Shown here: positions 46,044-48,264 of the stretch, piece by piece
Layout: each line of letters opens with the position of its first letter
Position numbering within the stretch: position 1 is the stretch's first letter
NCBI GenBank assembly: GCA_009914755.4
Contig: CP068257.2
Location: 41,216,001 to 41,280,000, forward strand
Origin: the human T2T-CHM13v2.0 reference genome, Homo sapiens
DNA: 64,000 nt
Direction of reading: 5' to 3'
The notes under the pieces: generated by a model
Databases searched by the model: none
What the model was told of the DNA's origin: nothing
Seen by the model: only the letters and a program-made list of their open reading frames with translations
Translations under genes and position numbers: made by a program

Positions 46044-46427
46044 CTGAGGAAGAGAGGAGGAAGACGGTTAAGCTTCACCTAAGGAAATAAGGCTGCATTC
46101 CTTGTTGGCCAGCGTGGTAATTTCTAACATGGGAGGAGGTAGAAACTGTTAAGGGGATCACGTAGCCAAAATACAGACATATTAAAGGGACATGGGGAAG
46201 TTCAAAACAGCTCTAATTTTATCAGCATGAAGCCTAACTAAACAGAAAATCTCCCAGCATACATGCCAGAACCCAGAGAGCTAAGCTGGAAGAACCCTCA
46301 ATGACACATGGCCCTCTTCCTCATGGGCAAGGACTAACCCAAGGCTAGAGGCAGGGATAAACTCACATTAACAATACTAATAACAGGCCAGGTATGGTAG
46401 CTCAGACCTATAATCTCAGCACTTTGG

Positions 46428-47513
46428 TGTTGCGAGAAGTCAGGGACCCCAAACGGAGGGACCAGCTGAAGCCATGGCAGAAGAATGTGGATTGTGAAGA
46501 TTTCATGGACATTTATTAGTTCCCCAAATTAATACTTTTATAATTTCTTATGCCTGTCTTTACTGCAATCCCTAAACATAAATTGTGAAGATTTCATAGA
46601 CACTTATCACTTCCCCAGTCAATACCCTTGTGATTTCCTATGCCTGTCTTTACTTTAATCTCTTAATCCTGTCAGCCGAGGAGGATGTATGTCACCTCGG
46701 GACCCTGTGATAATTGCGTTGACTGCACAAATTGTAGAGCATGTGTGTTTGAACAATATGAAATCTGGGCACCTTGAAAAAGAATAGGATAACAGCAATG
46801 TTCAGGGAACAAGAGAGATAACCTTAAACTCTGACCGCTGGTGAGCCAGGCGGAACAGAGCCATATTTCTCTTCCTTCAAAAGCAAATGGGAGATATATA
46901 GCTGAATTCTTTTTCTCAGCAAGGAACATCCCTGAGAAAGAGAATGCGCCCCTGAGGGTGGGCCTCTGAAATGGCCCCCTTGGGTGTGGCCGTCTTCTGG
47001 TTGAGACTGTAGGGATGAAATAAGCCCCAGTCTCCCATAGCGCTCCCAGGCTTACTAGGATGAGGAGATTCCCGCCTAATAAATTTTGGTCAGACCGGTT
47101 ACTCTCAAACCCTGTCTCCTGATAAGATGTTATCAATGACAATGGTGCCCGAAACTTATTAGCAATTTTAATTTTGCCCCGGTCCTGTGGTCCTGCAATC
47201 TCGCCCTGCCTCCATTTGCCTCGTGATATTCTATTACCTTGTGAAGCACGTGATCTCTGTGACCCACACCTATTCGTACACTCCCTCCCCTTCTGAAAAT
47301 CCCTAATAAAAACTTGCTGGTTTTACGGCTCAGGAGGCATCACGGAACCTACCGACATGTGATGTCTCCCCCGGACGCCCAGCTTTAAAATTTCTCTCTT
47401 TTGTACTCTGTCCCTTTATTTCTCAAACCGGCCGACGCTTAGGGAAAATTGAAAAGAACCTACGTGAAATATCGGGGGTGAATTTTGCCCAATATCTGGC
47501 TGAATTTCCCCCA
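46428..47513 (+). mobile_element. solo LTR of HERV9 (LTR12 family), about 1.09 kb, forward; in WDR4 intron 2, antisense to WDR4
   Basis: starts tgttgcgagaagtcagggacccc; internal tandem about 70-bp U3 repeats (...tgtgaagatttcatggacatttattagttcccc... / ...tgtgaagatttcatagacacttatcacttcccc...); 3' part ...cctaataaaaacttgctggttttacggctcaggaggcatcacgg...cccccggacgcccagctttaaaatttctctcttttgtactctgtccctttatttctcaaaccggccgacgcttagggaaaattgaaaagaacctacgtgaaatatcgggggtgaattttgccc; flanked by ACTTTGG on both sides (apparent TSD inside host Alu). Confidence 0.8.
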
Positions 47514-47617
47514 ATACTTTGGGAGGACAAGGCGAGAGGATCGCTTGAGCTCAGGAGTTCAAGACCAGCCTGGGTAACATGGCGAAACCACGTCTCTACA
47601 AAAAACTACAAAAATTA

Positions 47618-47916
47618 GGCAGCCCTGGCGCGGTGCCTCACACCTGTAATCCCAGCACTTTGGGAGGCCAAGGCAGGTGGATCACGAGGTCAGGAGATCG
47701 AGACCATCCTGGCCAACATGGTAAAACCTCGTCTCTACTAAAAATACAAAAAAAAAATTAGCCGGGCATGGTGGTGCGTGCCTGTAGTCCCAGCTACTCA
47801 GGAGGCTGAGTCAGGAGAACCACTTAAACCAGGGAGGTGGAGGTTGCAGTGAGCCAAGATAGCGCCACTGCACTCCAGCCTGGCAACAGGGCAAGACTCC
47901 ATCTCAAAAAAAAATT
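47618..47916 (+). mobile_element. young Alu (AluY-like) inserted into the A-rich linker of the older Alu; TSD AAAATTAGG
   Basis: ggcagccctggcgcggtgcctcacacctgtaatcccagcactttgggaggccaaggcaggtggatcacgaggtcaggagatcgagaccatcctggccaacatggtaaaacc ... poly(A); host sequence aaaaattagg duplicated at both ends. Confidence 0.85.
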
Positions 47917-48264
47917 AGGTATGTTGGCATGTGCCTGTAGTCCCAGGTACTTAGGGGGATGAGGCGGGAGATCACTTGAACCCAGGAGGTCGAGGCTGCA
48001 GGGAGTTATGTTTGTGCAACTGCACTCCAACCGGGATAACAGAGAGACCCTGTCTCAAAAAATAATAATAACGATAAAACAAACTGAGCCACAATACCAA
48101 TGATAACTAAAGAAAGCCACCATACGAAACACTCACATGCTCTACTTTTATATCTCAATTAGCTGAAGTTAACTTCCTACACCCGCCTTCAACCATTATT
48201 TCAAGGAGCCAGTAAGATGTGATTACTGACAGAAACTAAAAGTATTTAGAAAAGTCCTAACACT

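What the first reader, a model, noticed from the sequence alone, without database searches (positions are those of the whole stretch)
46383..48075. Solo HERV9 LTR12 nested in an Alu in WDR4 intron 2, antisense to the gene, with a second young Alu nested in the same host Alu
An older forward Alu was hit twice. A 1.09-kb LTR12-type solo LTR (U3 tandem about 70-bp repeats, AATAAA, characteristic ...CCGGCCGACGCTTAGGGAAAAT...GGGGGTGAATTTTGCCC end) is flanked by ACTTTGG on both sides. An AluY-like copy carries the TSD AAAATTAGG. LTR12 elements retain strong promoter and enhancer motifs and are documented cryptic transcription start sites when epigenetically de-repressed. This copy points opposite to WDR4, so it could launch antisense transcripts across WDR4 exons 1-2 and the promoter. 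The nesting order (Alu, then LTR12 and AluY) also gives a relative dating.
Basis: partly seen in the sequence, partly recalled or inferred. Interest (0 to 1): 0.5.

Follow-up and report, generated by a model that had tools for sequence, protein, structure and literature searches.

The report
Solo HERV-K11 (MER11) LTR, not LTR12
The 1.09-kb retroviral long terminal repeat inside an old Alu in intron 2 of WDR4 is real, but it belongs to the HERV-K11/HML-8 family (MER11), not to HERV9/LTR12, so it is an ordinary annotated-type repeat and the LTR12-based prediction of drug-inducible antisense transcription does not carry over.

Summary
The architecture is confirmed. An AluJ-like host (46386-48056) was hit twice. 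A 1,089-bp solo LTR (46428-47516, + strand) is flanked by the 6-bp duplication CTTTGG. A second Alu (47620-47909) is flanked by AAAAATTAGG. All of this lies between WDR4 coding exons 2 and 3, antisense to the gene.

The family call is wrong. Forty-nine related copies were fetched from public contigs, and in at least eleven the same LTR adjoins a provirus interior. That interior encodes Gag_p10, dUTPase-protease-G-patch, RT and HERV-K env, so it is betaretrovirus-like. A published MER11 (HML-8 LTR-derived) sequence aligns to window 46429-47261 at 80-85% identity. Published LTR12 copies and ten LTR12 primers show no similarity.

Other corrections: the "about 70-bp tandem repeats" are two ~91-bp units. 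The inner Alu is AluS-like (closest to AluSc), not AluY. The AATAAA at 47305 is best read as the polyadenylation signal, which puts the proposed TSS zone (47400-47500) in U5.

Divergence from a consensus of sampled copies (about 4-5%) suggests insertion roughly 20-25 Myr ago. The element is most likely a silenced intronic relic. MER11 elements are documented ZNF808/H3K9me3 targets and occasional distal enhancers. Interest is low.

The parts
46386..46427 (+). Host Alu (AluJ-like), 5' piece up to the LTR insertion point. Its last 6 bases are the left copy of the LTR target-site duplication.
   Evidence: sequence.
46422..46427 (.). Left target-site duplication CTTTGG of the LTR insertion.
   Evidence: The same 6-mer follows the LTR at 47517-47522. 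Another solo copy, L035, has a 6-bp duplication CATTAT.
46428..47516 (+). Solo LTR of the MER11 family (HERVK11 / HERV-K HML-8), 1,089 bp, oriented U3-R-U5 on the + strand. Subfamily A/B/C is not resolved.
   Evidence: 49 related copies, 82-93% identical; the same LTR flanks proviruses with betaretroviral genes; 80-85% identity to a published MER11 element; 93.4% identity to the consensus of sampled copies over the full length.
46491..46672 (+). Two direct ~91-bp repeat units in U3 (46491-46581 and 46582-46672), about 83% alike. This is a family-wide feature of the human-type copies; the macaque SERV-K/MER11 piece has one unit.
   Evidence: families D4, D6. (secondary HSPs in every full-length copy). 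(the macaque piece aligns to both units). (TRF reports nothing).
47305..47310 (+). Conserved AATAAA, inferred to be the polyadenylation signal at the end of R. U5 is then roughly 47331-47516.
   Evidence: the motif and its context CCCTAATAAAAACTTGCTGG are in the family consensus. The inference uses LTR logic: the U3 piece captured inside the macaque viral genome ends before this motif but includes the other AATAAA at 47078, which therefore is unlikely to be the functional signal.
47476..47516 (+). A 22-nt tandem duplication at the 3' end of the LTR (GGGTGAATTTTGCCCAATA TCT GGCTGAATTTCCCCCAATA). It marks a sub-lineage. The inserted TCTGG equals the spacer plus the first bases of the primer-binding site seen in proviral copies.
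   Evidence: D9; the same structure is in L002, L005, L009, L013, L014, L015/L022 and L032, while most copies end GGGGCAGGTTCCCCGATA.
47517..47522 (.). Right target-site duplication CTTTGG.
47523..47619 (+). Host Alu, middle piece. Its last 10 bases, AAAAATTAGG, are the left duplication of the second Alu insertion.
   Evidence: D1, D7.
47620..47909 (+). Nested second Alu (body to 47905, then a short A tail), AluS-type and closest to AluSc. It is followed by the right duplication AAAAATTAGG at 47910-47919.
   Evidence: 9.3% divergent from AluSc, 10.0% from AluSx and 11.8% from AluY. It has GGAGGTTGCAG and CTGGCCAACATGG (S-type), not GGAGCTTGCAG / CCGGCTAAAACGG (Y-type).
47920..48073 (+). Host Alu right arm (to 48056), A-rich tail, and the right copy of the host's own imperfect target-site duplication (48061-48073, against 46373-46385).
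   Evidence: (D2, D3, D8, D12).
45903..46042 (-). WDR4 coding exon 3 (residues ~53-99), the exon downstream of the element in gene orientation.
   Evidence: PDB WDR4 chains, E = 3e-25. (tblastn).
49072..49140 (-). WDR4 coding exon 2 (residues ~30-52), the exon upstream of the element in gene orientation. Exon 1 with the ATG is at 51780-51866, inside a CpG island.

Best explanation
The element is a solitary long terminal repeat of the betaretrovirus-like endogenous retrovirus HERV-K11 (HML-8), the LTR family called MER11.

Inferred history: a provirus integrated into an AluJ element in what is now WDR4 intron 2, and integrase made a 6-bp duplication (CTTTGG). Homologous recombination between the two LTRs later removed the ~7-kb interior and left one LTR. 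An AluS copy retrotransposed independently into the A-rich linker of the same host Alu.

The LTR points opposite to WDR4. This is the orientation usually tolerated in introns, because the LTR's own poly(A) and splice signals are then not read by the host transcript.

Divergence of about 4-5% from a family consensus puts the insertion at roughly 20-25 million years ago, within the published HML-8 activity window.

Its most likely present state is a silent, KZFP/H3K9me3-marked intronic relic with no effect on WDR4. That last step is inferred from what is published for the family, not shown for this copy.
For: Shown here:
1. An exact-match scan with a 20-mer from U5 returned 49 public contigs. 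Their copies are 82-93% identical to the window LTR over its whole length.
2. Contig L024 is a provirus bounded by this LTR type. Its ORFs hit Pfam Gag_p10, Gag_p24, zf-CCHC_5, dUTPase + RVP + G-patch, RVT_1, RVT_thumb, HERV-K_env_2 and GP41. Ten further contigs show the same interior next to the LTR, with a polypurine tract AAGGGAGAGA before TGTTGCGG and a Lys-type primer-binding site TGGCGCCCACGTGG after …CCCCGATA-TC.
3. The published 'MER11' element (eLife 2024, PMC11379458, Fig. 7 source data 1) is described there as HML-8 LTR-derived and RepeatMasker-annotated as MER11A. It aligns to window 46429-47261 at 80-85% identity, E = 0. Its HML-8 env part aligns to L024 at 86%.
4. The 6-bp duplication and the restored Alu continuity are visible in the sequence.
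5. LTR lengths of 1,067-1,112 bp fit MER11A/B/C and not MER11D, which is 897 bp (PMC8156875).
6. Divergence from the consensus of 33 sampled copies is 5.4% overall and 4.6% outside CpG. With T = D/0.2% per Myr (PMC10194239) this gives about 20-27 Myr.

From the literature:
- Chromosome 21 carries only solitary HML-8 LTRs, and there are about 504 solo LTRs genome-wide (PMC10194239).
- Most MER11 copies carry ZNF808-dependent H3K9me3, and a subset act as distal enhancers (PMC10703691).
Against: - No RepeatMasker/Dfam run was possible. The subfamily (MER11A, B, C or the newer G1-G4 scheme) is unresolved, and the name rests on one published MER11-derived sequence from macaque virus at 80-85% identity plus the proviral association.
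- The 49 contigs are presumed primate or human contamination of metagenome assemblies. Their host is not documented.
- The consensus used for dating mixes sub-lineages and was ascertained with a 20-mer taken from this copy, so the age is rough.
- The Alu consensus sequences and the tRNA-Lys primer-binding-site comparison come from memory.
- Nothing here measures chromatin state or transcription, so 'silent relic' is an expectation and not a result.
Confidence: 0.9

Rival explanations
1. One reading: a solo LTR12 of HERV9 (class I, gammaretrovirus-like) that can act as a DNMTi/HDACi-inducible cryptic promoter, firing antisense to WDR4.
For: It is a ~1.1-kb primate LTR with U3 direct repeats and AATAAA motifs, antisense to WDR4. 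LTR12 copies are documented HDAC-inhibitor-inducible promoters (PMC5085097).
Against: - blastn (word size 7) of the first ~350 nt of three published LTR12 copies gives only chance-level hits anywhere in the window (best E = 0.68).
- None of ten LTR12 primers of 17-23 nt matches with up to 3 mismatches.
- Six 10-14-mers from the element are absent from the published alignment of 22 LTR12 copies, while LTR12 control words are found 13-14 times.
- GC content is 45%, against 69-71% in the LTR12 5' region.
- Only two CCAAT motifs are present, both at the extreme 3' end where the family consensus has CCGAT. LTR12 has about seven NF-Y sites, including one 37 nt upstream of its AATAAA.
- Related copies flank betaretrovirus-like, not HERV9, interiors.
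Confidence: 0.01
2. A solo LTR of another HERV-K-type family related to MER11, for example MER11D of HERVK11D/HML-7 or MER9/LTR13/LTR14, rather than HML-8.
For: Class II LTRs share conserved blocks. The only named reference available was a macaque MER11A-like piece at 80-85% identity. No consensus library could be queried.
Against: - The MER11D reference is 897 bp, while this family measures 1,067-1,112 bp.
- The proviral env 3' end and polypurine tract match the published HML-8-derived env segment at 86%.
- Homology to the published MER11 piece is continuous over 833 nt.
Confidence: 0.04
3. It is a MER11 LTR, but not inert. It works as a KZFP-gated enhancer or as an antisense promoter that influences WDR4 or neighbouring genes in particular cell types (trophoblast, liver, early embryo, or ZNF808-deficient cells).
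For: In ZNF808 knock-out cells 220 MER11 elements lose H3K9me3 and gain H3K27ac, and they activate genes at 10 kb-1 Mb. MER11 copies are accessible in trophoblast, enterocytes and hepatocytes (PMC10703691). MER11 fragments show enhancer activity in an MPRA (PMC12273786). This copy is full length and only about 5% diverged. It sits about 4.3 kb from the WDR4 CpG-island promoter.
Against: Only a minority of the ~1,400 H3K9me3-marked MER11 copies are ever unmasked, and the effect was not seen at promoter distances. WDR4 is not mentioned in that paper (0 occurrences). No data on this copy could be obtained.
Confidence: 0.08

Closest known systems
MER11A/B/C, the LTRs of HERVK11 = HERV-K(HML-8)
   Same: - Continuous homology to a published MER11 element (80-85% over 833 nt).
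- The same LTR flanks proviruses with the betaretroviral gene set and an HML-8-like env end.
- Length just over 1 kb, a 6-bp target duplication, a Lys-type primer-binding site in proviral copies, and a multi-copy primate family.
- The literature states that chromosome 21 holds only solo HML-8 LTRs.
   Different: Nothing essential. This copy belongs to a sub-lineage with a 22-nt duplication at the U5 end, and the subfamily (A, B or C) could not be named without the Dfam/Repbase consensus sequences.
LTR12 (HERV9 / ERV9 LTR)
   Same: It is a primate-specific LTR of comparable size with direct repeats in U3 and AATAAA motifs. Solo copies of LTR12 also occur in introns.
   Different: - No detectable sequence similarity.
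- 45% GC against ~70% GC in the LTR12 5' part.
- No NF-Y/CCAAT array.
- Two ~91-bp units instead of a multi-copy short-unit array.
- A class II (betaretrovirus-like) parent instead of class I.
- AATAAA is read as the poly(A) signal here, but as the TATA box in LTR12.
MER11D, the LTR of HERVK11D = HERV-K(HML-7)
   Same: It is the sister LTR family, with a related name and ancestry.
   Different: The reference length is 897 bp against 1,067-1,112 bp here. MER11D clusters form a separate branch from MER11A/B/C in the published network analysis (PMC12273786).
The MER11-derived constitutive RNA transport element of macaque SERV-K/MER11
   Same: Window 46429-47261 is the homologue of the 726-bp LTR-derived segment. 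That segment exports unspliced RNA and can replace the MPMV CTE (PMC11379458).
   Different: Identity is only 80-85%. The human-type LTR has the ~91-bp unit twice. Export activity of human MER11 copies was not tested in that paper or here, and it would matter only if this copy were transcribed.

Membership tests
LTR12 (HERV9) | Sequence similarity to bona fide LTR12 copies | tested here: not met
   blastn (word size 7) with the first ~350 nt of the TNFRSF10B, CPED1 and GBP5 LTR12 copies gives only chance hits (E >= 0.68). The sequences were taken from PMC5085097 suppl. Fig. S2 and are machine-read, so noisy. Ten LTR12 primers give 0 matches at up to 3 mismatches; six element k-mers are absent from the 22-copy LTR12 alignment, while control LTR12 words are found 13-14 times. 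The 3' part of the stored alignment appears incomplete.
LTR12 (HERV9) | Array of NF-Y/CCAAT sites in U3 (about 7 per LTR; site -1 lies 37 nt upstream of the AATAAA 'TATA' box) | tested here: not met
   Searches give the feature; the element has CCAAT only at 47489 and 47511 (the U5 end, where the family consensus reads CCGAT), no ATTGG, and none near either AATAAA.
LTR12 (HERV9) | Flanks a class I (gammaretrovirus-like) HERV9 interior in proviral copies | tested here: not met
   proviral copies of this LTR carry Gag_p10, dUTPase-RVP-G-patch and HERV-K_env_2, which is the betaretrovirus-like class II gene set.
MER11A/B/C (HERVK11, HERV-K HML-8) | Sequence homology to a sequence published as a MER11 / HML-8 LTR | tested here: met
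   window 46429-46576 aligns at 85% and 46574-47261 at 80% (717 columns, E = 0) to the MER11 element of PMC11379458 Fig. 7 source data 1.
MER11A/B/C (HERVK11, HERV-K HML-8) | Bounds HERVK11-type proviruses (betaretroviral genes, HML-8 env, polypurine tract, Lys primer-binding site) | tested here: met
   (the env end is 86% identical to the published HML-8-derived env segment). Searches show the PPT and PBS junctions. The match of the PBS to tRNA-Lys rests on my memory of the tRNA sequence.
MER11A/B/C (HERVK11, HERV-K HML-8) | Class II target-site duplication of 6 bp | tested here: met
   CTTTGG on both sides. L035 has CATTAT on both sides, and L009 shares 5 of 6. That 6 bp is typical of betaretrovirus-like integrases is established knowledge and was not tested.
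MER11A/B/C (HERVK11, HERV-K HML-8) | Best-scoring Dfam/Repbase model is MER11A, B or C (formal RepeatMasker assignment and subfamily) | not testable with these tools
   No repeat library is available. Supplements with HML-8 or MER11 consensus sequences are not held.
MER11D (HERVK11D, HML-7) | LTR of about 897 bp | tested here: not met
   One search gives the reference length; complete copies of this family measure 1,067-1,112 bp, and the window copy is 1,089 bp.
AluY (for the nested second Alu) | AluY diagnostic bases (…CCCGGCTAAAACGG…, GAATGGCGTGAACC, GGAGCTTGCAG) and low divergence | tested here: not met
   the copy reads CTGGCCAACATGG, GAACCACTTAAACC and GGAGGTTGCAG. It is 9.3% divergent from AluSc and 11.8% from AluY.

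The most novel reading that the evidence does not exclude
This near-full-length MER11 solo LTR, 4.3 kb from the WDR4 CpG-island promoter and pointing towards it, is one of the minority of MER11 copies that escape or lose ZNF808/TRIM28 silencing. It would then act as an enhancer or antisense promoter over WDR4 exons 1-2 in trophoblast, liver or early-embryo cells.
Probability: 0.06. Interest if true: 0.3.

Novelty: already known. Interest (0 to 1): 0.08.

Why it matters
It matters mainly as a correction. Filed as LTR12, this copy would wrongly be expected to fire on DNMT or HDAC inhibition and to make antisense WDR4 RNA. As a MER11 copy, the relevant biology is different: KZFP (ZNF808)-dependent H3K9me3 silencing and occasional distal enhancer use. 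Nothing singles out this copy. The nested structure gives a small, ordinary dating example: an AluJ host, then a MER11 and an AluS insert of similar age.

Tried and rejected
- Full-text search for six 12-20-mers of the element found nothing.
- A search for WDR4 together with LTR12 gave only a congress abstract book.
- Supplements of the HML-8 survey (PMC10194239) and of the MER11 subfamily paper (PMC12273786), which should hold consensus sequences, are not stored. Subfamily A/B/C therefore stayed open.
- A scan of viral contigs with a 22-mer from U5 found nothing.
- Tandem Repeats Finder found no array in the LTR.
- I looked for NDUFV3 exon 1 downstream on the plus strand, thinking the LTR might be sense to it. 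tblastn and motif scans found none in the window, so the idea was dropped.
- I tried to confirm that the N71 residue of WDR4 is the common SNP rs2248490. The SNP exists as C/G, but the paper does not give the residue.
- A search for MER11 activation by decitabine gave nothing usable.
- The bacterial promoter/terminator scanner, Rfam and the phage/plasmid/E. coli collections were not used, because they are irrelevant to a primate repeat.
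Full report
**What is in the sequence**

Reading 45900-48600 shows an Alu that starts at 46386 (GGCCAGGTATGG…) and is broken after …CAGCACTTTGG at 46427.
- A 1,089-bp insert follows at 46428-47516. It starts TGTTGCGAGAAGTCAGGGACCCC and ends CCCCCAATA.
- The Alu then resumes with CTTTGGGAGGACAAGGCG.
- Every related copy ends …GATA, so the A belongs to the LTR and the target-site duplication is the 6-mer CTTTGG (46422-46427 and 47517-47522).

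The host Alu is interrupted a second time.
- After …ACAAAAATTAGG (47610-47619) comes a complete Alu (47620-47905) with a short A tail.
- A second AAAAATTAGG (47910-47919) follows, and the host right arm runs on to 48056.
- The host has its own imperfect duplication at 46373-46385 and 48061-48073 (family D12).

**Locus and orientation**

The minus-strand translation of 45905-46042 matches the PDB chains of human WDR4 (E = 3e-25). A tblastn with the WDR4 protein finds all coding exons on the minus strand.
- Exon 1 is at 51866-51780, exon 2 at about 49140-49072 and exon 3 at 46042-45903.
- The finding therefore lies in intron 2.
- In proviral copies a polypurine tract precedes TGTTGCGG and a primer-binding site follows …GATA. 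The LTR is therefore U3-R-U5 on the plus strand, antisense to WDR4.

These parts of the observation are confirmed.

**The U3 repeats**

There is no ~70-bp array. There are two units of about 91 bp (46491-46581 and 46582-46672) that are about 83% alike. Tandem Repeats Finder reports nothing.

**Which family it is**

No repeat library is available, so I looked for relatives.
- An exact-match scan of public metagenome contigs with a CpG-free 20-mer from U5 (TACTCTGTCCCTTTATTTCT) returned 49 contigs. These are evidently primate DNA carried along in metagenome assemblies.
- blastn shows that they hold copies 82-93% identical to the window element, many over its full length.
- Contig L024 (7.5 kb, read on its minus strand) starts in the 3' part of such an LTR, runs through 6.7 kb of interior and ends in the first 139 nt of another LTR.
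- Its ORFs hit Pfam Gag_p10, Gag_p24, zf-CCHC_5, dUTPase + RVP + G-patch in one ORF, RVT_1, RVT_thumb, HERV-K_env_2 and GP41. This is the gene set of betaretrovirus-like class II elements (HERV-K), not of the gammaretrovirus-like HERV9.
- Ten other contigs show the same interior directly next to the LTR.
- The junctions read AAGGGAGAGA|TGTTGCGG at 3' LTRs and …CCCCGATA|TC|TGGCGCCCACGTGG at 5' LTRs. From my memory of tRNA-Lys(CUU), the latter is a Lys-type primer-binding site.

**Naming it MER11**

The eLife paper on SERV-K/MER11 (PMC11379458) deposits the sequence of its 'MER11' element. The paper describes it as derived from a HERVK11/HML-8 LTR and as annotated MER11A by RepeatMasker.
- It aligns to window 46429-46576 at 85% and to 46574-47261 at 80% (717 columns, E = 0).
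- Its HML-8 env-derived part aligns to the end of the L024 interior at 86%.
- Complete copies of the family measure 1,067-1,112 bp, which excludes the sister family MER11D (897 bp; PMC8156875).
- The HML-8 survey states that chromosome 21 holds only solitary HML-8 LTRs (PMC10194239). That agrees with WDR4 lying on chromosome 21, a placement I know from memory and did not test.

I could not resolve the subfamily (A, B or C, or the newer G1-G4 scheme).

**The LTR12 test**

The supplement of PMC5085097 holds a machine-read alignment of 22 LTR12 copies and LTR12 primers.
- The first ~350 nt of three of those copies give only chance hits in the window (best E = 0.68).
- None of ten primers of 17-23 nt matches with up to 3 mismatches.
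- The LTR12 5' region is 69-71% GC, while the element is 45% GC.
- Six 10-14-mers from the element are absent from the whole alignment, while control LTR12 words are found 13-14 times. The stored alignment looks incomplete towards the 3' end.
- LTR12 carries on average seven NF-Y sites, one at a fixed 37 nt before its AATAAA box. The element has CCAAT only twice, at 47489 and 47511, where the family consensus reads CCGAT.

**Anatomy of the LTR**

The context CCCTAATAAAAACTTGCTGG (AATAAA at 47305) is conserved in the family consensus.
- The U3 segment that the macaque virus carries inside its genome ends at window ~47261. It includes the other AATAAA (47078) but not this one.
- From that I infer that 47305 is the polyadenylation signal at the end of R, and that U5 is roughly 47331-47516.
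- The TSS must then lie upstream of 47305.

The last 41 nt are a 22-nt tandem duplication (D9). It is shared by eight other contigs representing seven other loci, since L015 and L022 are the same locus. It contains TCTGG, the spacer plus the start of the primer-binding site. It is therefore the marker of a once-replicating sub-lineage.

**Ages**

- The window copy differs from the consensus of 33 sampled copies by 5.4% (4.6% outside CpG), and by 3.9-4.0% outside CpG from its nearer relatives.
- With the 0.2% per Myr used in PMC10194239 this is about 20-25 Myr, inside the published 43-17 Myr window.
The host is closest to AluJb (15.9%).
- The host is therefore clearly older. The two inserts are of similar, intermediate age, and nesting cannot order them relative to each other.

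**Function**

Nothing here measures activity. For the family, the literature reports the following.
- ZNF808-dependent H3K9me3 covers most copies. A subset of 220 is unmasked in ZNF808-knock-out cells and acts at enhancer distances, not promoter distances (PMC10703691).
- MER11 fragments show MPRA enhancer activity (PMC12273786).
- The U3 has RNA-export (CTE) activity in the macaque virus (PMC11379458).
- The HDAC-inhibitor response is described as confined to LTR12 (PMC5085097).

The most likely state of this copy is a silenced intronic relic in the tolerated antisense orientation. A regulatory role is possible but unsupported.

**Verdict**

The structure is real and the description is partly right. 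The family is wrong, so the functional argument falls. This is an ordinary, already-catalogued kind of repeat.

Noticed in passing
window 47476-47516; loci L002, L005, L009, L013, L014, L015/L022, L032; compare L044: A sub-lineage of MER11 LTRs ends with a 22-nt tandem duplication that spans the old U5/primer-binding-site border (…CCCGATA-TCTGG-CTGAATTTCCCCCGATA). L044 carries the LTR end, then a whole PBS-like TCTGGTGCCCAACGTGG, then ATTCCCCGATA again. This looks like a replication-time duplication or mis-jump that became part of U5 in a lineage that kept spreading.
   Followed up: partly
window 46491-46672 versus the SERV-K/MER11 sequence of PMC11379458: All sampled human-type MER11 copies have the ~91-bp U3 unit twice, while the macaque virus-borne MER11 piece, which has CTE activity, has it once. 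Whether the duplication affects RNA export or enhancer activity is unknown.
   Followed up: no
window 45990 region (WDR4 exon 3) and 22414-22611 (last exon): The encoded WDR4 has N where the PDB chains have K (…TFSNSGSYF…, residue 71), and Q for R in …[10 protein letters not shown]… relative to my memory of the protein. All other aligned exonic residues are identical to human. These are probably common human alleles (rs2248490 is a common C/G WDR4 SNP), but the mapping was not confirmed, so a non-human ape source is not formally excluded.
   Followed up: partly
window 51250-52000: A CpG island (GC 66-73%, CpG observed/expected 0.8-1.0) covers WDR4 exon 1 and its promoter, 4.3 kb downstream of the LTR on the plus strand. 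No NDUFV3 exon was detectable in the remaining 12 kb of the window.
   Followed up: partly
window 48269-48575 and 48576 onward: Two further Alu copies in minus orientation (they begin with T24-T25 runs) lie just beyond the composite element, so this part of intron 2 is a dense Alu cluster.
   Followed up: no
loci L001/L021/L049 and L015/L022: Several metagenome contigs from different samples carry the same MER11 copy with identical flanks. This shows recurrent contamination of metagenome assemblies by the same primate (presumably human) loci. L015 looks like a chimeric or inverted assembly of the L022 locus.
   Followed up: no
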